Below, in pieces: positions 4,057-47,311 of a DNA stretch of 64,000 bases; the first letter of the stretch is position 1, and each line of letters begins with the position of its first letter. Both the position numbers and the translations under genes were made by a program. Below the pieces are notes generated by a model. It saw only the letters and a list, made by a program, of their open reading frames with translations, ran no database searches and was not told where the DNA came from. The stretch lies in assembly GCA_000165345.1 (NCBI GenBank), contig CM000430.1:384001-448000 (forward strand), in the 5' to 3' direction.

Positions 4057-4178
4057 ATTTATTTTTGGATTACTATTCTCGCATAATTGCATTGTGGGGT
4101 TTTAGTTTTGCGCTTTTTTATTTGCATGCCAAAAAAACTTGATTATTATTAAATTTAGAATAATAGTTTTTTAACAAC

Positions 4179-5063
4179 ATGGATTCAGAGTTAGAAGGTG
4201 TATTAGGAATTTCTGTTGAGAGTCGGAAACTACATTTAAGTAAGTTATGTTTCTTTTGCTTAATATATGCAGATTAAAAATTAGAAAAAATTTATAAGGA
4301 AATTGGCGAAATTTTGTTAAAAGTAAAGGAGCTTACTGAAATTGATAGTGCTGCAGAAATGTTTGATTATTCAAAGAGAATAGAACATTTGATGACAAAT
4401 TTTGAACAAATTAGCAGAATTAATGATGAAAATAAATTGGTGAAGAATATTTTAATTAAAGAAATATCCGGCATTGAAGGCAACATCGAAATGCTTAAAT
4501 TGGAGTTCTATAGGATTTCAAGCCGACTTTCTGATTCACTTAAAGAGAAGGATTACTTAGAGTATGAATTGAACAAACTCAAAAATAAGTACAAATCAAC
4601 CAACGATGAGTTGAACGAAATAAGAAATAAATTATCAGCAAGAAACGAAGAATACGATGAATTTAAAAAACTAAATGAATGCATGAGAAAGGAGGTCGAG
4701 GATTTAGAGCTGGCAATAACCTTGGAGGAGAACGCAATTTCTGAAAAGAGAAAGGAACTAAAAAACCTGGAAATGGTCAGCATCGGAAAGGAAACAGAAA
4801 TAAGAAAACTTGACAAATTGGCCTCCCAGACTATTTCGGAATTAAAAAGGAAAGTCAAGATAAGAGAGATAATTGAAGACAAAGTAAACGCCCCATCACG
4901 TTCCATCCCAGTAAAAGTTCGCCACGTAAATAAAGAAAGCAAAAATTCCAACCATAAAGATTTCAAAGATCAAAACAAAATACTGATAAATGAACGAGGA
5001 AAGTTGTGCAGTTCATTACAAAACATAAAAATAAAAAGAATAATGGCGCAACACATTATATGA
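4179..5063 (+). CDS. Coiled-coil protein of unknown function; the 5' exon is tentative
   Basis: The ORF 4314-5063 is Lys/Glu/Leu-rich with heptad-like periodicity (ELNKLKNKYKSTNDELNEIRNKL...). Upstream, ATG 4179 begins MDSELEGVLGISVESRKLHL, then GTAAGT at 4240 and an acceptor AG at 4283-4284, giving a 45-nt intron that joins in frame to KKIYKEIGEILLKVKELTE. The alternative is a start at the internal Met near 4359. Confidence 0.4.
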
Positions 5064-37285: not shown

Positions 37286-40200
37286 ATGAGTTTTAAAGTA
37301 GAAAGTAATCTTGTTCGCTCAAGTACCTTAAAAAGTTACAATAAATCTTATATCAAGAAAACTAGAAGAGGGAAGATTAGAAAAGTCTCAAATGAAATTT
37401 ATGTTAGAAACGAGATACTATGCGGACTTAATTTTTGCACTTTGTGTTACGGGAAATATTCGGGTATTTCAAACCAAAAAGCTCGGAATATTATTTTTCC
37501 TAACTTTGATATATTTAATAAATACAGCGACTTCATTTTAGAAGATGAATCTTTAAATCACGTGGTGATTCCGTATTCAATACTCGACTATTTGAATGAG
37601 ACAGATAGAACCGTTATTAATAAATTAAGAAATAAACTTAGAAACCAAAATGAATTACCAATATTTAAAGAAATTGAACTGACGAGTGAAAATAACTTGT
37701 TTGATTATAATGTTAATCAGTATATTCGATTTCCAGACACGCAATTCACTGAAACATGTTTGAATCACTCAATTAGTAGATTTAATTTTGAAGATTGTGC
37801 TGGAAATTCAATTATAAAAGTAGCTATCTGGTTTATTAATCATTTATCAAAATCCAATATAAATATTCGTTTCTATATTTTGACAGAAAATGAAGAATGG
37901 ATCAAAAAATTTACTTCTAATTTATCATTTGACTCAAAATGTTTTATTGTAAATCCATATGAATATATTAATTTTGTCTCAAACGAATATGTAAATTCTG
38001 GTGATAAACTTCCTTTCAAAACATCGTTGGTGAATGATAATAGCCAACCAGAAAATAATTGCATTTTCACAGAATATGCCTCAGAAAGAGAGATTTTACA
38101 AGGAATTGACAGAGGAGTTTTATTTAAAGGCATATTGCGAATGATTTCTAGAAATAGGGGCGAAATAGAAGTAACAAACAAAAATAGAAAAATGACCGTT
38201 AATATAATTGGGCACCTTAATTTAAATAGGTCTATAGATGGTGACTTAGTTGTTGTTAAACTTGATGAAACATTAAATTGTGATGAAAAGAACTTAAAAT
38301 CCAAAATCAAATCTGAATTGGAGCTTGATCAAATAGAGGATTTTGAACATAGTGAAATAGCGGGAATAGGAAGTATTTTATTAGGAGATGACGATTATGA
38401 CGAAAATTCAGCATTAAACATCCAAAATATTAGCATTCAGAGTATAGAGAATGAAGATAATAATTCATTAGCTTTTTCTGAAAATACCAATTTTTCTGGG
38501 AGGGTTATTGGGGTATTAAGTCGCAATTGGGGTGAGTATTGTGGCTCTTTGGTTCCGATTAATTCAAATGACGATCGATTTAATATTTGCAACAACACCT
38601 CCACAAGGCAACATCGGATTTTTGTTCCAATCGACCCGAAAATACCAAAGATTATAATTCATACAAAACTTTCATCCACTATTGAAAATCAGAGACTAGT
38701 TGTAGTAATTGATGAATGGGACTGCTCATCATTTTATCCCACTGGGCATATAGTAGGAGTATTGGGTAAAGCTGGAGATCTTGAAACAGAAACTTCCGTA
38801 ATTTTACGTATAAGAGATATAAATTCATCTGAATTTTCTCCATCTGTTTTGAAATGCCTTCCAAATAATGATAGAAACGATGATTGGAAGCCGAATGAAA
38901 TTGACTTTAGAGATAGAGTTGATCTAAGAAATAAGTTAGTTTTTTCTGTAGATCCCCCAGGATGCAAAGACATTGATGATGCTCTAAGTATTGAATTGAT
39001 CAACCCAAATGATGATAATTCTCAAGAAAAGTGGTATCTTGTTTCTGTTCATATTGCTGATGTAACGCATTTTGTTAAGCCTAACACTCCAATAGATGAT
39101 GAAGCATCCAGAAGATCTAATACATGTTATCTTGTAAACAAAAGGATAGATATGCTCCCAGAAGAACTCACAACAAATATATGTTCTTTAGTTTCAAATA
39201 AAGATAGATTATCCTTCACATGTAATTGGGAAATTAACGAGAACGCAGAAATTAGAAATGTATACTTTAATAAAACAATAATAAATTCCAAGTACTCTTT
39301 CACATATCTTCAAGCACAAAATATCATTGATGACAAGTGCAACAATTCAGAAATAGCAATTTCTCTAAGAAGACTAATGAAAATTTCTCAAGTTTTAAGG
39401 AAAAATAGAATTAGTCGTGGTGCGATTGAACTCTCTTCTTCAGAAGTAAAAGTTGATTTTGAGGAATCCAGAAACTTATATCAAGACTTAAATCACAATG
39501 ATTTGGGCAAAGAACAAATTTCATCAGTAATTTTGAATATAAAAAATGTATACGCATATAATTATTTGAATACGAACTCAATGGTTGAGGAGTTTATGTT
39601 ATTGGCAAATGTTTCTGTTGCAAGGCAAATCATTTCAAAATTTCCAAACTGTTGTTTATTAAGAAGGCATCCTGAACCAAAGTACGATCAATTAGAGAAG
39701 CTTAAATATGTCCTTTCAAAAGTTGGAATCAGTAATTTTACCTATGAAAATTCATTAAGCTTATCTAACAGTTTGAAAAATATTCTAGATTCAGAAATTA
39801 TAAAGAAAAATCCCATTATTGGAAAATTGGTTCGAATTTTGACAACGCGTACAATGAATCAAGCATTATACTTCACAACTTGCAAATCTGTGGAGGGAAC
39901 ATTTCATTATGGCCTTGCAGAGGAAATATATACTCACTTTACTTCTCCTATTAGAAGATATGCTGATATTATTGTTCATCGTCTACTTTCGGCTTCTATT
40001 GGACTAGAGCCACTATGCGAATTAATTTTTGACAAAGACTATGTAAGTTCATGATATTTTAAATTTATTTTTATTCATTATTATTTTAGATGTTTAAGTT
40101 ATCAAATACGCTCAATAAAAATAAAAGAAATGCTCAAATGGCTGGTAGAGATTCAACAAGACTATTTATTTACCTTTTTTGTAAGCAAAACGGTAATCAA

Positions 40201-40490
40201 GAAACTGAAGGCATTATTATTCAAGTAAGAAATGACTCATTACTAATTTTTGTACCTAAATTCGGCTTTGAAGGTAAGTTAATAATCATTTAAAGGTTTC
40301 TAAATAATTGTTGATAGGCATTGCACCAATTGACAAGAGCAAATATATATTTGATGCTAATGTTCCTTACTTGAAAAATCTAGAGAAAGAAACTGATACT
40401 CTTAAATTATTTGATAAAGTAAAGGTTTCTATATATGCATCAGATGAATACTTCCAAAATAAGGTAATGATTAATATTATTTCTGATTAA
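37286..40490 (+). CDS. DIS3: Exosome catalytic subunit Dis3 / Rrp44-like RNase II-family exoribonuclease (CR3-PIN-CSD-RNB-S1), at least 3 exons
   Basis: Exon 1 is about 37286-40042: CGLNFCTLCYGKYSG CR3-like cluster, PIN-like region, then the RNB signature VDPPGCKDIDDALSIE...VHIADVTHFV...YFTSPIRRYADIIVHR. GTAAGT...AG introns sit at about 40043-40089 and 40274-40317. Exon 2 40090-40273 encodes MFKLSNTLNKNKRNAQMAGRDSTRLFIYLFCK, and exon 3 starting at 40318 encodes ...LFDKVKVSIYASDEYFQNK; both match the Rrp44 S1 tail. A possible further 30-nt intron (40464-40493) with a terminal micro-exon 40494-40511 is an alternative to the read-through stop at 40490. There is a 1-nt inconsistency between my count and the ORF-track end near 40031-40054. 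Confidence 0.8.
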
Positions 40491-40606
40491 TAGATATCAA
40501 TCCTTTATTGACAAGTGATTTAAATTGAAAAATTTATTTCCCAATATTATGCAGTGTTAGACCTGAGGTTGAATAATAATGAATATTTACAATAGCACTT
40601 GTTAAC

Positions 40607-41267
40607 TTACGATTTTTGTTCAGCAATACTTTTATCTGCCCTATAGAACGCAAGTTCAGACTCTAATTCTCTAATTGAGTTTTTTATATTCCTTTTCATA
40701 ACCTTTTTGTCAACCGTTGATATCAACTTCTCAAGTTGAATAATTTTTTTCGCTAAAAATAATTAGAATGAAAATTAAATTTTTAATAAACTTACATTCA
40801 ATTTTTTTCCTCTGATGTACTGTTGCAGAAAGAGATGATAATAAGTTAGTCAAAGCATCTGGGCGTATAACAACTAATGGTATCGGATTAATGCTTGGGA
40901 CCGCATCACCATTTCCAGTTGCGGTGTTCCTTATTTCTTCTCGAAGCTTTCCTTGATTGATACTTACAGGAGCAGTGTTAGGGAACTTTAAAGTCATCTT
41001 TATTGTTGTAGTTGGAGCCCCTGGGGTGGAAAAATTATTCAATTCACTAAATATCGGTCTCTTCTTGCTGAAACTCAAAACATCTGCAGCTTCTCCAACC
41101 AAATTGCTTGTGGCTCCATGTAGATTTTCGAGTTCTTTTTCGTGCTGTAATATACTTTGTCTAAGTTCTAGTAAATTGTTGATTTTATTGTCGCATCTAG
41201 CAACGTTTAAACAGTAGAAAAATAAAAATAAATAAGCAATAAATTGAATTCCAATAAAACCTTTCAT
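40607..41267 (-). CDS. Small secreted protein (signal peptide), paralog 1; 2 exons, the second tentative
   Basis: ATG at 41267 followed by the hydrophobic signal FIAYLFLFFYCLNVARC. On the minus strand GTAAGT lies at 40795-40790 and the acceptor AG at 40754-40753, giving a 43-nt intron. The downstream exon 40752-40607 is open for 48 codons (SKKIIQLEKLISTVDKKVMKRNIKNSIRELESELAFYRADKSIAEQKS*). Confidence 0.45.
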
Positions 41268-41383
41268 TATTAAAGTATATAAAGCCTTTTATCAGGGTTA
41301 TTATCAACCTTTGAGTATTTGAATTTTTTATTTTTGCAAAATAATTTAGTCATGCATTTTATTAAATTCACTTTAAATTTAAT

Positions 41384-41395
41384 TGCATGCATGCA
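41384..41395. promoter_or_regulatory. TGCATGCATGCA motif, about 120 bp upstream of secreted-protein gene 1
   Basis: Overlapping copies of TGCATGCA. This octamer is a known ApiAP2-bound promoter motif in Plasmodium, with orthologous binding reported for Cryptosporidium AP2 domains. Confidence 0.4.
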
Positions 41396-41588
41396 TTCCC
41401 CACAAACTATTATCATTGTAAAAATTTAATTATTTTTTTAATATGAAGCCTGTTCCATTTAAAAAAAAAATGATTAATATAAAAATCCAATTTAGATTTT
41501 GAATCAAAGCAACTAATCAAAGTGTAAAATTAGGATAATATAAATTAATAAATAATTATTTGACTAAACCATTTAATAGTTAAATTTA

Positions 41589-42155
41589 TTATTTATAGAG
41601 TTCTGCATCAGCAGCAAAGTATGCAGCATTTTGCAAAGTACTTTTTAATGATACTGCTACTTGGTCAGAGTTCACTTTTGGATTTGTAACAGCTTGTGCG
41701 AGAGCCTGCTCATCTACATAAGCTGCACTTCCCGGAGTATTTGCTTCTTTTTGATAGCTTGCCGAGAGGCTTTCTATATCTAATATTGGCTGAGGTGAGG
41801 TTATAATTATCGGAACTTTTGGGCCAGTATTTCCAAAAAATGGCAACTCCCCTAAGCCTGATAATGGCCCATAACCAATTGAAAGCGCTATTGTATCTCT
41901 TCCGTGCCTCACTACAGTTGGAGCTGAACCACTTGATTGATTGTTTTTGTCTGTTATTGGGTCTCCAAATCTCGTTTTCCCTAATGCAGTATTTGATGAT
42001 AGTTCCTTTACCATTTCTTCAAGTGTTGCTTGCTGTTCGAGAAATGTTGAATATAAAGCTCTGTTTCCCAATAAATTCACTCTAATTGACCCAATGTAAC
42101 CGCATCCCATAAAGAGGAATATTAATCCAAAAAATAATCTATAATATTTATGCAT
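41589..42155 (-). CDS. Small secreted protein (signal peptide), paralog 2
   Basis: 188 aa. The N-terminal hydrophobic segment LFFGLIFLFMGCGYIGS looks like a signal peptide. Weak collinear similarity to paralog 1 (LEQQATLEEMVKELSSN versus LELRQSILQHEKELENL; VPIIITSPQPILDIESLSAS versus VPSINPIPLVVIRPDALTNLLSSLSA). Confidence 0.5.
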   Translation of the reverse strand: MHKYYRLFFGLIFLFMGCGYIGSIRVNLLGNRALYSTFLEQQATLEEMVKELSSNTALGKTRFGDPITDKNNQSSGSAPTVVRHGRDTIALSIGYGPLSGLGELPFFGNTGPKVPIIITSPQPILDIESLSASYQKEANTPGSAAYVDEQALAQAVTNPKVNSDQVAVSLKSTLQNAAYFAADAELYK

Positions 42156-42575
42156 TTTGTCTTAAAAAATGAATAATTCAAATAATATTATACTCAAGAA
42201 TTAAAATCCTATGTTCAATTTAAACAATATTGCTAGAACTTCCTGAAATAGGAAAAATGGCTGCATGCGGAAACAGATTGCATGAATAAAAATACATGTA
42301 AAACGATACTTGTCACAAGTGACATTCATACCGCCATGTGTACGCATGATGACCGCCGAGTGTACATGTGGCTGAATTTACAGGTAGATCATTGTGGGGT
42401 CATTTTTACGCCAGTAAATTCAAATAATTTATAATTTATGTGGAAAAAAATATTGCCAGTTATTACAATAAAGTATTTTTAAAAAATATAATAAAAAGTT
42501 GTATATCGCACAAATTCGTAAGTTTGAAAACATGAAGGAGTAGTTAGGCAATTTATTACATTTTAGAAATTGAAA

Positions 42576-42863
42576 ATGACTCAAAACATCAAAACTAAGA
42601 AAGCTACTAAGGTATCAAAGAAAGAAGCAAAAAAAAATAAACCTAAGAGAGCAATGACTGCGTTTATGTATTTTGCTAGCAGTAGAAGAGCAGAGATTAC
42701 AGCAGCAAATCCAAGTTTGAGGTCGCAAGTTGCTGAAGTTGCTAAGATTCTTGGTGAGGAGTGGAGAGGGATGAGTGAATCAGATAAGGCACCATTCCAG
42801 AAGCAGGCAGATGCAGACAAGAAAAGATACGAACGAGAAAAGGCACAAATGGCAGGACAGTAG
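42576..42863 (+). CDS. HMG-box (HMGB-type) chromatin protein
   Basis: ATG at 42576 (the track M at 42570 is TTG). A basic N-terminal stretch is followed by a single HMG box PKRAMTAFMYFASSRRAEITAANPSLRSQVAEVAKILGEEWRGMSESDKAPFQKQADADKKRYEREKAQ. Confidence 0.8.
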   Translation: MTQNIKTKKATKVSKKEAKKNKPKRAMTAFMYFASSRRAEITAANPSLRSQVAEVAKILGEEWRGMSESDKAPFQKQADADKKRYEREKAQMAGQ

Positions 42864-43030: not shown

Positions 43031-46000
43031 TCATTTAGTTTTGTTCCATGGCCCCTCTTCTACTCCAGGACAGATCGACTGTGCCATGTGCAGGTTGTTT
43101 TGTGAAATATATTTTGACGTATGGAGATTGCTTGCAGCCTTGTTTGAGAGCTCACTGGCTATTGGTTCTATTGTTTCGCCTTGACCTGTAGGATTGTTTA
43201 ACATTCCCGAATTAGATTTCATTTGTAGTATAATCGGCCCAATATCTGGAAGCGACGAGAGTAGACTTCCATCACGATAGCGCAGATTAAGTAGGCCGTT
43301 CAGAGTTACAAACGCAGTTTTCAGAAATGACTCATTTACGCCAAATGTGCACGTTTCTCTAACCAACTCCGCGTAATTTTGCACATGCTTAAGCATCTCA
43401 TAGTACTCTGATTGTTGCTCATGAAGTGTTCTGAAATAAAAGTTTGCAGCAGCCCCATCAAATTGTATAGGCCCAGGGTTGCAAAAGCGGTCTTGCATTG
43501 CCCAATGTTCCTGAACGATTTTTAACCAACGATATGCTTTACCTTTCAGATCCACTTCACTAGAAGGAATTGTAGGAATGTTGCTTGGGAGTTCAGGATG
43601 GGTCTCATCGTTGGAAGGAACAATTTTCATTAGGCAATTAAATGGTATTGCTGTCATTCTCCAATCGGAAACATCGCCGCACAACCCTCTAATAGAACAA
43701 AGATGGCCTGTTAGTCCGCTCTCAACAACTATCGAAGCAAAATGCCCAAGCGCATACCCTAGCTTTGCATCAAACTGTGATGGCATAGCAGATCTACCCT
43801 GATATCCAAAAAAGTGTGTAAACGGCTGAAAATTGCCATTATATTTATTATCTTGTTTTCTTTTCTTAAGCTCCTTTTTTATCATTAAAACAAGAAGTGC
43901 CTCGGTCTCTATCGCGGAAAATGCAGAGTCAACATCTAATGAAAGTATTTCTCTTCTAATGAACCTAGGTAATGACTTAAATAATGCGAGACTCCAGGGA
44001 GTCATTTTAGAAGAGTATTTACTTCCATCAAAGCTATCTGTAGGGCTATGTTCCTGATTCGCAGCCGAACTTTTGTTATCAGCCACATCTACGCGAGAGC
44101 TTTTTTCTTGGCTATTTGTGTGATCGGACAATGTGGGGTGATCGCTGTGTCCCAAACTCATCATTTCAGACATAAATAATTTCATCTCGGAATGTTCTTC
44201 AGCGAATCTTCGTAATTCATTTATTTCAGAAATTAAAATCTTCATATCTGGTAAATGTGAAAGTAATGCATCTGGAATGAGTACAGTTCCGAAGTTCTTT
44301 CCAAACTCCGCTCTCTTACATATTACATCTGCCACATCTTCTACGATGTGAACAAGAGTTTTATCAGCTGCTCCATATTCTTCAGCAATTATTACAACAT
44401 TTGGATGTGTCTGTAGTGCGCACTCCAGAACTTCATTTGAAGGTTGCCTTCCCATTAATCTAATAAAATGCCAATATTTAGGCATTGAAGCAGCATCCGT
44501 TAATACATTTCCAATTAAGCTTGCATACAATTTAGTGCTTGAATCAAACCCTACGCATGCCTCTACTAGATCATTTGCTAAGTTGTTAGACGCAGTTGCT
44601 GGGACGCCAACAACCTTAGTATTACAGTTATTTTGTAGAAAATACTCTGCCAAGATTGCGCCCTGGGTCATTCCAAATGCAGAGCCACACAATACAAGGC
44701 CATCCAAATGTAAACTTTCACAAACCTTTCTAGCCTTTTCCAAATTCTCTTTCGAAACTAAACACTCTGTATACGTTCTTCCAATTAATTCCGATCCTCC
44801 TTGATTTGGCAAAAGATCTACATCTTTCTCAGTAAGTGTAATATGCTTCCCTTGCAAAAATCCTTTAACTCCATAAAAGCCCAAACATCTTCCCCTTACC
44901 ATTTTCAGACGGTGGTATAGTCCCCATACCACATTTGCAATTCCAGGTGCTTGTCTAGACATAAGCAATACTCCTATTCTCAACCCTACATTGGGCTCTT
45001 CAGATGAAATGTCAAGTTGCGCTTCTTGGCAATAAAAGTGATTTGAATTACATAAATGAGGATAACAGGTTGTAATCTGTCTTTTTATCAGAGGATCAGA
45101 TAAATTATATTGAGTAGTCGGTTTACATCTTGCTTTAAGGTGGGTAAGTAGCAGTGGCAACGGAGGTCTATATGTTGTGCGATAAAGTTGGAGAGAGGAG
45201 AGGGTTCCCTGAATTCTATTAAATACACCTCTTTTCCCTCCCCCATTATTTGGTTGTACAATATTTATATCAGTATCTGTAACTGAGGCATCCTCTCCGC
45301 ATAATAAATCTTGTAACTCCGGCGTTCTTACAATATAAGGGATAGTTTCAGAGCATGGGCCTTCGAATTGTAAAGGTCCAGGCGCCCTATATAAATCTTG
45401 AAACTTCCAAATATCTCGAACCTGTTTTAATAGTTTGAAAAGTGGCCCATTCAAATCGACTAACTGACGAGTAACTGCAGCATAGCACTGACCGTCTTGT
45501 CTGGATTTTTTAACTTCCATAATTCTAGTAATACTTATACCGCATGCTTGCCAACTAAGAGGATTCCCTTCTAATCCTCTTATAACTGCCAAGTAACCAT
45601 TCATACCTTTATAAACCAACGCTCCTGCGCAATGGCCCAGTGCGTAACAATAGTTAGAATCAAAATTAGATGGCATGGCGCATCTTCCTTCATAACCCAA
45701 ATAATGATGCATCATTGTAAATCCAAAAGGCATCAGTATTGAGCCATTTGACTTATTTGAAATTTCTACCTGATCTGAAATTGTTTCCTTGGTTTGGCCA
45801 TGTTCAAAATCATAATAGAAAGATGTTCCATGCCTCCTATGTAACTCTGCTTCAACAAGTAGTATAAGTAATCTCTCTGTTGCTATTTTTGCAACTTGTA
45901 TTTGGCCAGTAGCCTCTCTATCAAGTAACAATTGCTCTCTAATATTTTCTGGAAGGTACTCCCAAATTTTTGCAGAAGACTCCGAAAGACAACTGCATAT

Positions 46001-47311
46001 CTTTTTATCAAAGTCGTCAGGTGAAGCTTCCTGATCGCATTCAGACCCCTCATACTTTAACTTATCAAGGATTTCATTTAATTCTTGAATTAAAATTTTC
46101 ATTTCTGGGATAAACTCAATTAAGCCTTCAGGTATTAATATTATGCCATACATTTTGCCCATTTTTGAACGCTCTTCCATTAAATCTACAATATTCTTCA
46201 CTATTTCAAATAATGTTATTCCTTCTTGTTCAACTTCTTCTGCAATGAAAACAATATTTGGTCTTGTTTGCAATGCGACTTCCAGAGCCAAATGCGATGC
46301 TGATCTACCCATAACTCTTACGAAGTGATAGACATTTTGTGATGTACAAATGTCTGAGCAAAGATTACCTACGCACTCAGCGTAAGTCCTCGCAGCAGTA
46401 TCAAATCCAAAAGAGACTTCAATAGCAGGGTTTTTTAAATCTCCATCAATAGTTTTTGGGACCCCTACAATACAAAAATTTTTGTTTTTCTTTGCCATGT
46501 AATCCGCGATCAACGCAGCATTTGAATTTGAGCCATCACCTCCAATAACAATTAATCCATGTAATTGAAGCTGCTCGCAAACTTTTTCAACTCTTTCCAA
46601 ATCTTGCTCTCCATTAATTCTCCCTCTACCAGACCAAAGCATATCAAAACCTCCTTGGTTTCTAAATCGATCCATTAATTCATCTGAAATAACCTTATAA
46701 GTTGATTTGAAAAGACCATCTAACCCACCTAAAAATCCGAATAGCTGGCTATCAGGGTGATGATTCTTAATAAAATCATATACACCGCAAATGACATTAT
46801 GTCCGCCAGGTGCAGGACCACCTGATAATACAATTCCAACTCTAAGAGCATGGTCTGAATTCTCCGAGTTCTTTGATTCATCTCGAGTTATTTCAATGCA
46901 TGGTCTCCCAAATGTGTTCGGTAACAATTCTTTGAGTTTATTCTCATCTTTTTGGATCAAGTCAGGAATTTCAATCTCTTTTATTTTTATGCAGTTTGAA
47001 GATAAGGAATATGGCAATGTTGGCACCCATTTTTGTCTTTCTAATTGCACGGGACTAAAGTTTTCAAAGAGATCTGCTGAGTGCAAATGAGGTTTTCCAC
47101 CCATTGACAATTTAAATGAGTCTAACCTAGTTGCAATATTACGTTCTATTGAATCTCTTCTACGAATATGCTTTTGAGACGTTATCGCTTTAGAAATTAA
47201 TGGAATACTACGTTCTTTATCGATATGAGTGTCTTCAAGTATTACAGCCAAACTTCTAAGCCGGCGAATAGCATTTCTTTGGCTTCTGTTCATTTCTCCA
47301 TTCAAAAACAT
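43031..47311 (-). CDS. PFK: Pyrophosphate-dependent phosphofructokinase, fused tandem double-domain form (1426 aa)
   Basis: Single 4281-nt ORF with ATG at 47311. The N-terminal half has the catalytic motifs IVIGGDGSNSNAALIADYMAKK, KTIDGD and VMGRSASHLALE. The C-terminal half repeats the fold (VGVPATASNNL, LMGRQPSNEVLE) but has CGSAFG in place of GGDGS. The fused 1400-aa-class PPi-PFK architecture is typical of apicomplexans. Confidence 0.9.
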   Translation of the reverse strand: MFLNGEMNRSQRNAIRRLRSLAVILEDTHIDKERSIPLISKAITSQKHIRRRDSIERNIATRLDSFKLSMGGKPHLHSADLFENFSPVQLERQKWVPTLPYSLSSNCIKIKEIEIPDLIQKDENKLKELLPNTFGRPCIEITRDESKNSENSDHALRVGIVLSGGPAPGGHNVICGVYDFIKNHHPDSQLFGFLGGLDGLFKSTYKVISDELMDRFRNQGGFDMLWSGRGRINGEQDLERVEKVCEQLQLHGLIVIGGDGSNSNAALIADYMAKKNKNFCIVGVPKTIDGDLKNPAIEVSFGFDTAARTYAECVGNLCSDICTSQNVYHFVRVMGRSASHLALEVALQTRPNIVFIAEEVEQEGITLFEIVKNIVDLMEERSKMGKMYGIILIPEGLIEFIPEMKILIQELNEILDKLKYEGSECDQEASPDDFDKKICSCLSESSAKIWEYLPENIREQLLLDREATGQIQVAKIATERLLILLVEAELHRRHGTSFYYDFEHGQTKETISDQVEISNKSNGSILMPFGFTMMHHYLGYEGRCAMPSNFDSNYCYALGHCAGALVYKGMNGYLAVIRGLEGNPLSWQACGISITRIMEVKKSRQDGQCYAAVTRQLVDLNGPLFKLLKQVRDIWKFQDLYRAPGPLQFEGPCSETIPYIVRTPELQDLLCGEDASVTDTDINIVQPNNGGGKRGVFNRIQGTLSSLQLYRTTYRPPLPLLLTHLKARCKPTTQYNLSDPLIKRQITTCYPHLCNSNHFYCQEAQLDISSEEPNVGLRIGVLLMSRQAPGIANVVWGLYHRLKMVRGRCLGFYGVKGFLQGKHITLTEKDVDLLPNQGGSELIGRTYTECLVSKENLEKARKVCESLHLDGLVLCGSAFGMTQGAILAEYFLQNNCNTKVVGVPATASNNLANDLVEACVGFDSSTKLYASLIGNVLTDAASMPKYWHFIRLMGRQPSNEVLECALQTHPNVVIIAEEYGAADKTLVHIVEDVADVICKRAEFGKNFGTVLIPDALLSHLPDMKILISEINELRRFAEEHSEMKLFMSEMMSLGHSDHPTLSDHTNSQEKSSRVDVADNKSSAANQEHSPTDSFDGSKYSSKMTPWSLALFKSLPRFIRREILSLDVDSAFSAIETEALLVLMIKKELKKRKQDNKYNGNFQPFTHFFGYQGRSAMPSQFDAKLGYALGHFASIVVESGLTGHLCSIRGLCGDVSDWRMTAIPFNCLMKIVPSNDETHPELPSNIPTIPSSEVDLKGKAYRWLKIVQEHWAMQDRFCNPGPIQFDGAAANFYFRTLHEQQSEYYEMLKHVQNYAELVRETCTFGVNESFLKTAFVTLNGLLNLRYRDGSLLSSLPDIGPIILQMKSNSGMLNNPTGQGETIEPIASELSNKAASNLHTSKYISQNNLHMAQSICPGVEEGPWNKTK

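What the first reader, a model, noticed from the sequence alone, without database searches (positions are those of the whole stretch)
40607..42155. Adjacent pair of diverged small secreted proteins downstream of a TGCATGCATGCA element
Two neighbouring minus-strand genes encode proteins of about 180-200 aa. Each begins with a hydrophobic signal-peptide-like segment and shows weak collinear similarity in helical and Pro/Thr-rich segments. The upstream region of gene 1 carries overlapping copies of the ApiAP2-type TGCATGCA motif (41384-41395). Gene 1 probably also has a 43-nt intron and a charged coiled C-terminal exon. Small tandem secreted families in apicomplexans are often stage-specific invasion or surface factors.
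Basis: partly seen in the sequence, partly recalled or inferred. Interest (0 to 1): 0.5.

Follow-up and report, generated by a model that had tools for sequence, protein, structure and literature searches.

The report
Two known Cryptosporidium crystalloid-body protein genes
The two small neighbouring genes are the already catalogued Cryptosporidium parvum genes cgd2_2100 and cgd2_2110, made only in female gametes and assigned by published proteomics to the sporozoite's enigmatic crystalloid body, so the finding is real but not new, and they are not invasion or surface factors.

Summary
The window is C. parvum chromosome 2. The two minus-strand genes are cgd2_2100 (gene 1) and cgd2_2110 (gene 2), which match database entries exactly.

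**Confirmed**
- Both ORFs are present, and both have signal-peptide-like N-termini.
- The 43-nt intron and the helical C-terminal exon of gene 1 hold up.
- TGCATGCATGCA sits at 41384-41395.

**Corrections**
- A 16-nt micro-exon adds SNTA, so the CDS ends at 40547 and the protein is 209 aa, as in the CpBGF annotation.
- Only gene 1 lies downstream of the 12-mer.
- Similarity between the two proteins is marginal (P about 0.004-0.04), so paralogy is plausible but unproven.

**Published data**
- Both transcripts are off in asexual stages and sporozoites and strongly on in females.
- Both proteins are in the 13-member hyperLOPIT crystalloid-body class.
- cgd2_2110 falls when AP2-F is depleted.

**Added here**
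- A G-box plus TGCAT(G) composite is the best-conserved block upstream of gene 1 in eight species. Gene 2 has its own conserved G-box and CATG[CT]A.
- Neither family has detectable homologues outside Cryptosporidium, and neither has a recognisable domain.

Verdict: already known genes. The stage-specific secretory reading is right; the invasion/surface reading is not supported.

The parts
40547..41267 (-). Gene 1 = cgd2_2100 / cpbgf_2002100. Three exons: 41267..40796, 40752..40611, 40562..40547. 209 aa.
   Evidence: The spliced translation equals P0022, the CpBGF/ATCC 209-aa model. The 205-aa version equals C. parvum KAL5370003.1/WKS76506.1. Orthologues were found in 12 Cryptosporidium entries.
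41193..41267 (-). Signal peptide of gene 1 (aa 1-25; candidate cleavage ARC|DNK)
   Evidence: There is a basic n-region and an h-region with mean Kyte-Doolittle hydropathy (KD) 2.4 over 12 aa. The conserved -3/-1 site falls at the same alignment position in 7 orthologues. Other annotators name it 'signal peptide containing protein'.
40753..40795 (-). Intron 1 of gene 1 (43 nt, GTAAGT..TTTTTAG, phase 1)
   Evidence: The donor position is the same in 8 species. Lengths are 43, 43, 45, 44, 46, 53, 50 and 55 nt, and the sequence diverges. Splicing restores the conserved C-terminal exon.
40563..40610 (-). Intron 2 of gene 1 (48 nt).
   Evidence: The donor TC|GTAAGT and a (T)TTAG/ACAG acceptor are conserved in 8 species. 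Seven measured intron lengths are 44-52 nt; the C. muris intron is longer and was not measured.
40547..40562 (-). Micro-exon 3 of gene 1, encoding the C-terminal tail (S)SNTA + stop
   Evidence: The tail is SNTA in 7 species and SNTV in C. muris. Nucleotide differences fall at synonymous third positions (TCT/TCC/TCA, AAC/AAT, GCA/GCT).
41384..41403 (-). Composite cis-element upstream of gene 1: G-box GTGGGG (41403..41398), then TGCATGCATGCA (41395..41384), at -136..-117 from the ATG
   Evidence: TGGGGAATGCAT is the best-conserved 12-nt window of the whole 448-column intergenic alignment of 8 species (mean identity 0.84 against 0.53). A G-box plus TGCATG within 0-7 nt is present in all 8, with GTGGGA in C. 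felis. The exact 12-mer occurred in 0 of 100 shuffles.
41351..41356 (-). Additional TGCATG half-site at -89 from the gene 1 ATG
   Evidence: It is present in parvum, meleagridis and felis at -87..-89. Conservation is weaker.
41589..42155 (-). Gene 2 = cgd2_2110, single exon, 188 aa
   Evidence: The sequence is identical to EAK88782.1/QOY43022.1. Orthologues were found in 6 clusters, down to C. muris at 54% identity. It lies immediately upstream of gene 1 in all 7 other species fetched.
42087..42155 (-). Signal peptide of gene 2 (aa 1-23; candidate cleavage I-x-S|IRVN)
   Evidence: The h-region has mean KD 2.6-3.1. The -3/-1 site is conserved at residue 23/24 in all 7 orthologues. Met1 is conserved in all species, so the 173-aa and 252-aa database models are disfavoured.
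42262..42268 (-). GCATGCA box at -113 from the gene 2 ATG
   Evidence: [ACG]CATG[CT]A at about -111/-113 aligns in one column block in all 8 species. The window mean identity is 0.80 against 0.56 for the region.
42363..42417 (-). Highly conserved block in the shared HMG-box/gene 2 intergenic region. It includes an inverted G-box (CCCCAC = GTGGGG at 42394-42399 on +) and CCACATGTA.
   Evidence: The 12-nt windows have mean identity 0.92-0.97 across 8 species. There is one inverted G-box at -225..-271 in every species. Which of the two divergent genes it serves is not known.

Best explanation
These are the C. parvum chromosome-2 genes cgd2_2100 (209 aa, three exons) and cgd2_2110 (188 aa, one exon). 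Both are small, cysteine-free, domain-less proteins restricted to the genus Cryptosporidium, and both carry N-terminal signal peptides.

Shown by published data: they are transcribed only in female gametes (macrogamonts). The proteins are present in sporozoites, whose own mRNA for them is at background. Spatial proteomics assigns both to the crystalloid body, the posterior multivesicular organelle of sporozoites.

Inferred mechanism:
- The female or zygote translates them into the ER.
- They are packaged, together with the large LCCL/CCp adhesive-domain proteins, into the vesicles that form the crystalloid body and are inherited by the sporozoites.
- There they act as soluble luminal or matrix components. 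Their amphipathic heptad-patterned helices (the N-terminal helix in both, and the C-terminal helical hairpin of cgd2_2100) provide oligomerisation surfaces.
- Transcription is driven by female-stage ApiAP2 factors acting on a conserved G-box + TGCAT(GCA) module about 110-140 bp upstream of each ATG.
- cgd2_2110 is experimentally AP2-F dependent. The best-documented TGCATGCA and G-box binders are cgd2_3490 and cgd8_810, both female-expressed.
- The two genes may be ancient tandem duplicates that predate the C. muris/C. parvum split (my estimate about 0.55).
For: Identity: the window proteins exactly equal C. parvum database entries on contigs of about 990 kb. The order PFK - HMG-box - gene 2 - gene 1 - Dis3/RNB is conserved in 7 other species.

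Localisation: the R script in Data Set S3 of Tandel et al. 2023 lists the hyperLOPIT crystalloid-body class as 13 genes, including cgd2_2100 and cgd2_2110.

Expression (Tandel et al. 2019 supplements), in log2 CPM:
- cgd2_2100: 0.96 asexual, 6.57 female in vitro, 7.51 female in vivo.
- cgd2_2110: 0.96, 12.09, 11.14.
- Bulk samples, both genes: sporozoites about 1-2, 24 h below 0, 48 h about 9.0-9.4.

Regulation:
- cgd2_2110 changes by log2FC -1.33 on AP2-F depletion (review PMC12246861).
- TGCATGCA is the AP2_1 motif. cgd2_3490 binds TGCAT(GCA) and cgd8_810 binds the G-box G[T/C]GGGG in protein-binding microarrays. Both are listed as female-specific.
- Both motifs are footprinted in 8 species.

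Protein features:
- Signal-peptide architecture is conserved.
- AF2 predicts helices 26-67, 136-170 and 173-204 in gene 1, with pLDDT 72-88 in the C-terminal part.
- Hydrophobic residues occupy a/d heptad positions at 0.6-0.78, against 0.26-0.30 elsewhere.
- Both mature proteins lack Cys.

Genus restriction: plus the exhaustive profile search of 1.84 billion representatives, which found one cluster.
Against: - The crystalloid-body assignment for these two proteins is a machine-learning classification of fractionation profiles. I found no microscopy for them, and the primary paper (Guerin et al. 2023) could not be read.
- cgd2_2100, the gene directly downstream of the perfect TGCATGCATGCA, is not in the list of genes significantly changed by AP2-F depletion.
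- The primary PBM paper does not list AP2-F (cgd4_1110) among the four TGCAT binders, although a later review does.
- The conserved block upstream of gene 2 is shared with the divergent HMG-box gene.
- The structural-matrix role is inference only. AF2 models are poor (pLDDT 61 and 40) and give no fold match.
- Paralogy rests on P values of only 0.004-0.04.
Confidence: 0.8

Rival explanations
1. One reading: the pair are secreted invasion or surface factors, released from apical organelles or displayed on zoites to act on the host cell.
For: Both have signal peptides, are small and have no transmembrane segment. Many small secreted Cryptosporidium proteins are effectors (general knowledge). The proteins are physically present in the invasive sporozoite, since the hyperLOPIT material was sporozoites.
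Against: They are classified to the crystalloid body, not to micronemes, rhoptry, dense or small granules. Transcripts are absent at 24 h, when merozoites are being made, and crystalloid bodies are absent from merozoites. Sequence conservation is very high and synteny is strictly single-copy, unlike polymorphic effector families.
Confidence: 0.06
2. The proteins are secretory-pathway proteins of the female or zygote with another destination (oocyst wall, residual body, ER or wall-forming bodies). In this reading they only co-fractionate with crystalloid-body markers.
For: They are female-specific with a signal peptide, like oocyst-wall proteins. I saw no microscopy for these two. hyperLOPIT classes built from few markers can misassign.
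Against: The same dataset has a separate oocyst-wall class that does not contain them. cgd2_2110 responds to AP2-F depletion together with crystalloid genes, while oocyst-wall genes were unchanged. There is no ER-retention-type C-terminus. Oocyst wall proteins are typically Cys-rich (general knowledge), and these have no Cys.
Confidence: 0.1
3. The two genes are not paralogues. They are unrelated orphan genes that happen to be neighbours and share regulation, so 'diverged pair' is a compositional or secondary-structure artefact.
For: hhalign probability is 1.35%. Global hhalign finds nothing. Neither family's database-scale profile search retrieves the other. OrthoMCL places them in different groups, OG5_195022 and OG5_195023. 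Gene 1 has two introns and gene 2 has none. Column shuffling ignores local composition, and the reversed-profile control still scores 29.9.
Against: All one-to-one tests lean the same way (P 0.004-0.07). The alignment is collinear over the whole mature length. The most conserved blocks of each family pair up in the same order and with similar spacing: [IV]P[LI][IV][IV]..P, SLSA[TS], then A[FY][FY].AD, at spacings of 16/47 against 15/49 residues. The genes share strand, size, organelle class, expression and promoter layout.
Confidence: 0.45

Closest known systems
Cryptosporidium parvum crystalloid-body proteome (hyperLOPIT class of Guerin et al. 2023, as listed in Tandel et al. 2023): cgd1_1510, cgd2_790, cgd6_313, cgd6_820, cgd7_1730, cgd7_300, cgd7_4810, cgd7_5140, cgd8_4290/4300/4310
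   Same: Both genes are literally members of this list. They share signal peptides and female-gamete-only transcription. cgd2_2110 also shares AP2-F dependence.
   Different: Unlike the CCp members (cgd7_1730, cgd7_300, cgd2_790), they have no recognisable domain, no cysteines and no homologue outside the genus. A relationship to the other small tandem cluster, cgd8_4290-4310, could not be tested because those sequences were not retrievable with the tools.
Plasmodium LCCL-lectin adhesive-like proteins (LAPs/CCps) of the ookinete crystalloid
   Same: They share the organelle type, maternal or zygotic expression with inheritance by the next stage, signal peptides, and a link to sporogony and transmission (discussion of PMC10233709).
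   Different: LAPs are large, multi-domain, Cys-rich proteins conserved across Apicomplexa. These two are about 165-185-aa mature proteins, helical with a low-complexity stretch, and confined to Cryptosporidium.
ApiAP2 TGCATGCA (AP2_1) and G-box regulons of C. parvum (Oberstaller 2013/2014); the orthologous AP2-Sp / PF14_0633 TGCATGCA system in Plasmodium
   Same: An exact TGCATGCA (two overlapping copies) and a G[T/C]GGGG box lie in the proximal upstream region. The binding factors cgd2_3490 and cgd8_810 are expressed in the same stage.
   Different: No binding or reporter data exist for these promoters. The tight, genus-conserved juxtaposition of the G-box and TGCAT, 2-7 nt apart, is to my knowledge not a described composite.
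Tandem or subtelomeric secreted gene families of Cryptosporidium (SKSR, MEDLE, CpLSP, GGC; from my own knowledge)
   Same: Small signal-peptide proteins, genus-specific, encoded by adjacent genes.
   Different: Those families are multi-copy, polymorphic, often subtelomeric, and expressed in invasive or asexual stages. Here there is one copy of each gene per species, strict synteny, 54-56% identity even to C. muris, and female-only expression.

Membership tests
C. parvum crystalloid-body proteome (hyperLOPIT class) | Assigned to the crystalloid-body class by spatial proteomics of sporozoites | tested here: met
   Both cgd2_2100-RA and cgd2_2110-RA are in the 13-gene 'crystalloid_body_LOPIT_submission' list in Data Set S3 of PMC10233709. 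The primary paper was not readable.
C. parvum crystalloid-body proteome (hyperLOPIT class) | Female-gamete-restricted transcription, with protein inherited by sporozoites | tested here: met
   PMC6877471 supplementary files 4 and 5: log2FC female vs asexual is 5.6 (cgd2_2100) and 11.1 (cgd2_2110). Sporozoite and 24-h mRNA is at background and 48 h is about 9 log2 CPM.
C. parvum crystalloid-body proteome (hyperLOPIT class) | N-terminal signal peptide (entry into the secretory pathway) | tested here: met
   Heuristic n/h/c analysis finds a conserved -3/-1 site in all orthologues and no other TM segment. SignalP was not available.
C. parvum crystalloid-body proteome (hyperLOPIT class) | Microscopic localisation inside the crystalloid body | not testable with these tools
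   This needs epitope tagging with IFA or immuno-EM. No published image for these two genes was found.
AP2-F regulon (Tandel et al. 2023) | Significant mRNA decrease on conditional AP2-F depletion: gene 2 (cgd2_2110) | tested here: met
   log2FC -1.33 in Data Set S1. The gene is listed among the six AP2-F-dependent crystalloid genes in the review PMC12246861.
AP2-F regulon (Tandel et al. 2023) | Significant mRNA decrease on conditional AP2-F depletion: gene 1 (cgd2_2100) | tested here: not met
   cgd2_2100 has 0 occurrences in the differential-expression file. It either did not reach |log2FC|>=1 at FDR<=0.01 or was filtered out.
AP2_1 / G-box cis-regulated genes | TGCATGCA and/or G[T/C]GGGG in the proximal upstream region, conserved in orthologous promoters | tested here: met
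   Gene 1 has GTGGGG-AA-TGCATGCATGCA at -136..-117, and this composite is present in 8 of 8 species. Gene 2 has GCATGCA at -113 and an inverted G-box at -244, both in 8 of 8 species. Factor occupancy was not tested.
Tandem paralogue pair | Statistically significant sequence or fold similarity between the two products | tested here: inconclusive
   hhalign Prob 1.35%, P 0.038. SW z 1.6-3.7. hmmsearch P 0.006-0.07. Profile-profile shuffle test 8 of 2000. AF2 models are too poor to compare folds.
LCCL/CCp (LAP) crystalloid proteins | LCCL, SRCR, LH2 or other adhesive domains; Cys-rich | tested here: not met
   No Pfam family at E<=10 apart from a chance DUF724 hit at E 2.7. There are zero Cys in both mature proteins.
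Ribosome recycling factor (UniRef automatic name of gene 1 orthologues) | RRF domain detectable by profile or structure | tested here: not met
   There is no Pfam RRF hit. The profile search of PDB sequences gives only a chance uL23 hit at E 0.31. Foldseek against PDB gives nothing with E<=0.001. The protein has a signal peptide.
Bacterial-type lipoprotein (UniRef automatic name of gene 2) | Conserved lipobox with an invariant Cys at the +1 position | tested here: not met
   FMGC occurs only in C. parvum and its closest relatives. Orthologues have LIGF, LIGL, LLGF, LLFL, ILGI and VASI at that position.
Multi-copy secreted effector families (SKSR/MEDLE-like) | Several paralogues per genome, variable copy number, polymorphism | tested here: not met
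   Searches return one protein cluster per species for each gene and no additional paralogues. Synteny is strictly conserved.

The most novel reading that the evidence does not exclude
cgd2_2100 and cgd2_2110 are ancient tandem duplicates that together form a Cryptosporidium-specific, cysteine-free helical matrix (homo- or hetero-oligomeric) of the crystalloid body. Their genus-conserved G-box + TGCAT(GCA) composite is the cis-regulatory signature of a late-female, crystalloid regulon read combinatorially by the female ApiAP2s (cgd8_810 with cgd2_3490 and/or AP2-F). In addition, the splice-dependent, genus-conserved C-terminal tail SNT[AV] of cgd2_2100 (behind an intron whose donor carries a stop codon) could be a functional signal, for sorting or interaction, rather than an accident.
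Probability: 0.2. Interest if true: 0.5.

Novelty: already known. Interest (0 to 1): 0.25.

Why it matters
The crystalloid body is required for transmission in Plasmodium. In Cryptosporidium it is implicated in oocyst shedding, yet its function is unknown. These two genes make up two of the 13 candidate components, and they are the kind with no counterpart in other apicomplexans, so they are reasonable targets for tagging and knock-out work on what is specific to the Cryptosporidium organelle.

This check adds little that is new but some that is practical:
- The correct three-exon model of cgd2_2100. Public annotations disagree (178, 205 and 209 aa).
- A caution that C-terminal tagging would disrupt a conserved tail.
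- Two precisely mapped, phylogenetically footprinted promoter modules that could be used for female-specific reporters, or to test which ApiAP2 drives crystalloid genes.

As a scan result it is an ordinary, already catalogued locus.

Tried and rejected
- **Distant homologues.** Two single-sequence searches, one profile search and one exhaustive HMMER profile search of 1.84 billion representatives found only Cryptosporidium orthologues.
- **Domains and structures.** Pfam returned nothing. PDB sequence profiles returned nothing meaningful.
- **AF2 models.** Gene 2 came out at pLDDT 40, which is unusable. Gene 1 came out at pLDDT 61 and pTM 0.21. Foldseek against PDB with the gene 1 model gave no match at E<=0.001. 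I ran no further search on such models.
- **Failed scripts.** An hhalign column-shuffle test timed out. The first version of my own profile-profile script crashed. The corrected version is.
- **Literature access.** The primary hyperLOPIT paper (Guerin et al. 2023) is not in the library by DOI or PMID, so I relied on the gene list embedded in Tandel et al. 2023. No papers mention the cpbgf/CPATCC identifiers. No supplements are held for the F-RBP preprint.
- **Rejected features.**
  - The 48-aa ORF 41270..41416 covering the TGCATGCATGCA element is not a gene. Its ATG is absent in C. ubiquitum and the region aligns as non-coding sequence.
  - The 252-aa N-terminally extended C. hominis model of gene 2 does not apply. 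In this window the extension is closed by stop codons and the region is conserved as promoter blocks.
  - The 173-aa model starting at Met16 would remove the signal peptide, and Met1 is conserved in all species.
  - The automatic names 'ribosome recycling factor' and 'lipoprotein' are unsupported (see the membership test).
- **RNA families.** An Rfam scan of the whole window found no RNA families.
- **Blocked test.** Motif enrichment across all 13 crystalloid genes could not be tested, because the tools cannot fetch other C. parvum loci.
Full report
**Identity of the locus**

The window is about 30% G+C and densely packed with long ORFs. The spliced 205-aa product of gene 1 and the 188-aa product of gene 2 are exact matches to Cryptosporidium parvum database proteins. 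These are KAL5370003.1/WKS76506.1 ('signal peptide containing protein') and EAK88782.1/QOY43022.1, on contigs of about 990 kb. Other members of the same 90% clusters carry the identifiers cpbgf_2002100 / CPATCC_0028710 for gene 1. The genes are cgd2_2100 and cgd2_2110. The flanking genes are a Dis3/RNB exoribonuclease (+ strand, ending at 40490), an HMG-box protein (42570..42863, +) and the 1426-aa PPi-phosphofructokinase, cgd2_2130 (43031..47311, -).

**Checking the observation**

- Both ORFs exist at the stated coordinates.
- The 43-nt intron (40753..40795) is real.
  - In all eight species compared (parvum, meleagridis, ubiquitum, canis, felis, ryanae, xiaoi, muris) a GTAAG donor sits at the same codon position.
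  - Intron length varies (43-55 nt) and is not a multiple of three.
  - The intron sequence diverges, and splicing restores a highly conserved exon, KKI.QLEKL...KRNIKNSIRELESELAFY.ADK.IAEQKS.
  - A 48-nt intron (40563..40610) leads to a 16-nt micro-exon (40547..40562) that adds SNTA before a TAA.
  - The donor, the acceptor and the micro-exon are present in all eight species: SNTA in seven and SNTV in C. muris.
  - Differences between species fall on synonymous third positions, while the intron diverges freely.
  - The three-exon translation equals the 209-aa CpBGF/ATCC model.
  - Public annotations disagree at 178, 205 and 209 aa. Cross-species conservation favours 209.
- Both proteins have a basic n-region, a strongly hydrophobic h-region and a -3/-1 cleavage candidate at a conserved alignment position. 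The candidates are ARC|DNK at about 25/26 and I-x-S|IRVN at 23/24. There is no further hydrophobic segment. This is my own heuristic, not SignalP.
- TGCATGCATGCA is at 41384-41395. The 8-mer alone is not remarkable for a 64-kb window (2 overlapping hits against 0.71 expected). The exact 12-mer never occurred in 100 shuffles.

**Are the two proteins related?**

The evidence is consistently positive but weak.
- BLASTP gives 21% identity over about 190 residues.
- Smith-Waterman (SW) alignment on signal-peptide-free sequences gives z = 1.6-3.7 in four species pairs.
- hhalign gives probability 1.35%, P = 0.038, aligning IPLVVIRPDAL...SLSAT...ELAFYRADK with VPIIITSPQPIL...SLSAS...AAYFAADAE.
- hmmsearch with Z=1 gives P = 0.006-0.07 in both directions.
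- A profile-profile SW scores 38.4 against 24.0 +/- 3.7 for column-shuffled profiles. Eight of 2000 shuffles reach it, and the reversed control scores 29.9.
- Neither family retrieves the other at database scale, and OrthoMCL splits them.
- The genes share strand, adjacency, size, compartment, expression and promoter layout. Taking that into account, I put ancient tandem duplication at about 0.55.
- AF2 models from the shallow 7-sequence alignments are too poor to settle it. Gene 1 has pLDDT 61, with helices at 26-67, 105-116, 136-170 and 173-204. Gene 2 has pLDDT 40.

**What the genes are, from published data**

- A review states that cgd2_2110 is one of six crystalloid-body protein genes dependent on the female transcription factor AP2-F.
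- In the source paper (Tandel et al. 2023), cgd2_2110 falls by log2FC -1.33 on AP2-F depletion.
- The analysis script in that paper's supplement lists the 13 genes of the hyperLOPIT crystalloid-body class (Guerin et al. 2023). Both cgd2_2100 and cgd2_2110 are on it. cgd2_2100 is not among the significantly changed genes.
- Tandel et al. 2019 supplements show both genes at the detection floor in sorted asexual parasites (0.96 log2 CPM).
  - In sorted females the values are high: cgd2_2100 at 6.6 and 7.5, cgd2_2110 at 12.1 and 11.1.
  - In bulk samples they are at background in sporozoites and at 24 h, and at about 9.0-9.4 at 48 h.
- The proteomics was done on sporozoites, so the proteins must be made maternally (or in the zygote) and inherited. 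This is how crystalloid components are described.
- This replaces the 'invasion or surface factor' idea. Crystalloid bodies sit at the posterior end of sporozoites and are absent from merozoites.

**Regulatory elements**

Synteny (PFK - HMG - gene 2 - gene 1 - Dis3) is conserved in all seven other species fetched, which allowed footprinting.

*Upstream of gene 1*
- The best-conserved 12-nt window in the 448-column alignment is TGGGGAATGCAT at -135 (mean identity 0.84 against 0.53 overall).
- Every species has a G-box (GTGGGG; GTGGGA in C. felis) 0-7 nt upstream of TGCATG.
- The full TGCATGCATGCA is retained in five species.

*Upstream of gene 2*
- [ACG]CATG[CT]A at about -112 aligns in all eight species.
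- A very strongly conserved block at -262..-208 contains an inverted G-box.
- This region is shared with the divergent HMG-box gene.

*Candidate binding factors*
- In protein-binding microarrays, cgd2_3490 binds TGCAT(GCA) and cgd8_810 binds G[T/C]GGGG.
- Both of these factors, and AP2-F, are listed as female-specific.
- One caveat applies. The review lists AP2-F as 'AP2_1-like', but the primary paper names the four TGCAT binders as cgd8_3230, cgd1_3520, cgd5_4250 and cgd2_3490. It also says the specificity of cgd4_1110_D3 is not conserved with its Plasmodium counterpart.
- Direct AP2-F binding to this element is therefore not established.
- The gene with the perfect motif (cgd2_2100) is the one not significantly affected by AP2-F loss.

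**Protein properties and mechanism**

- Neither family has a Pfam domain, a PDB relative or any homologue outside Cryptosporidium.
- Both mature proteins lack cysteine. This contrasts with the Cys-rich LCCL/CCp modules that dominate crystalloid proteomes.
- Each has an amphipathic, heptad-patterned helix directly after the signal peptide, then a conserved non-helical middle segment (P-T-T-T-I-K-M-T-L-K-F-P-N in gene 1; G-P-K-V-P-I-I-I-T-S-P-Q-P-I in gene 2), then C-terminal helices. In gene 1 these form a long charged hairpin.
- The likeliest role is a soluble luminal or matrix component that oligomerises, or binds the CCp complex, inside crystalloid vesicles. This step is inference.

**Comparison and verdict**

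- The genes are members of the published C. parvum crystalloid-body candidate set.
- They work in the same organelle type as Plasmodium LAPs but are not members of that family.
- They are not like the multi-copy polymorphic secreted families.
- The automatic names 'ribosome recycling factor domain' and 'lipoprotein' are spurious.
- The locus is already known. The increments here are:
  - the cross-species support for the 209-aa three-exon model, with a stop codon inside a splice donor;
  - the footprinted G-box + TGCAT composite;
  - a quantified but inconclusive case for paralogy.
- Interest is low to moderate (0.25).

Noticed in passing
window 40547-40610 (- strand); L001-L007 about 4640-4730: The donor of gene 1's second intron (TC|GTAAGT) contains an in-frame TAA. 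Intron retention would therefore give a 205-aa protein and splicing a 209-aa protein ending in SNTA. The 4-aa tail is conserved across the genus (SNTV in C. muris), with synonymous-site variation. Its function is unknown, and public annotations disagree (178, 205 and 209 aa).
   Followed up: yes
window 4094-4129 (+), upstream of the ATG at 4180: A second G-box + GCATGC composite (GTGGGG at 4094-4099, TTGCATGCC at 4121-4129) lies 50-85 bp upstream of a spliced coiled-coil protein gene. Its exon 1 starts at 4180 and the ORF 4314..5063 continues it. This may be another gene under the same kind of control.
   Followed up: partly
whole window: The G-box G[T/C]GGGG is over-represented: 17 sites against 7.25 expected, and 0 of 100 shuffles reach 17. 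GCATGCA is also over-represented: 11 against 4.95, and 2 of 100 shuffles reach 11. This agrees with their published status as over-represented C. parvum upstream motifs.
   Followed up: partly
window 40488-40549: The convergent stop codons of the Dis3/RNB exoribonuclease gene (+; stop at 40488-40490) and of cgd2_2100 (-; stop at 40549-40547) are only 56 bp apart. Their 3' UTRs must therefore overlap or be extremely short.
   Followed up: no
window 42363-42417 (between the HMG-box gene and cgd2_2110): A block of about 55 bp is 92-97% conserved across eight species, including C. muris. It reads TTACTGGCGTAAAAATGACCCCAC..GATCTACCTGTA..CAGCCACATGTA and is followed by GGCGG repeats. This is far more conserved than the TGCAT boxes. 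Which of the two divergent genes it controls is unknown.
   Followed up: partly
literature (PMC12246861 Table 4 against PMC4117751): The 2025 review lists AP2-F (cgd4_1110) as binding an AP2_1-like (TGCATGCA) motif. The primary PBM paper names four other proteins as the TGCAT binders and reports non-conserved specificity for cgd4_1110_D3.
   Followed up: partly
database names of P0001/P0002 and P0026/P0028: UniRef automatic names ('Ribosome recycling factor domain-containing protein' for cgd2_2100 orthologues, 'Lipoprotein' for cgd2_2110) are not supported by any profile, structure or conservation test. The lipobox-like FMGC is not conserved in orthologues.
   Followed up: yes
window 37286-40490 (+): The Dis3/RNB gene continues beyond the long ORF 37286..40054 through two short introns into the ORFs 40090..40293 and 40308..40490. 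The donors are GTAAGT at about 40049 and about 40289. Orthologous annotated products of 1037-1097 aa in other species are consistent with this.
   Followed up: no
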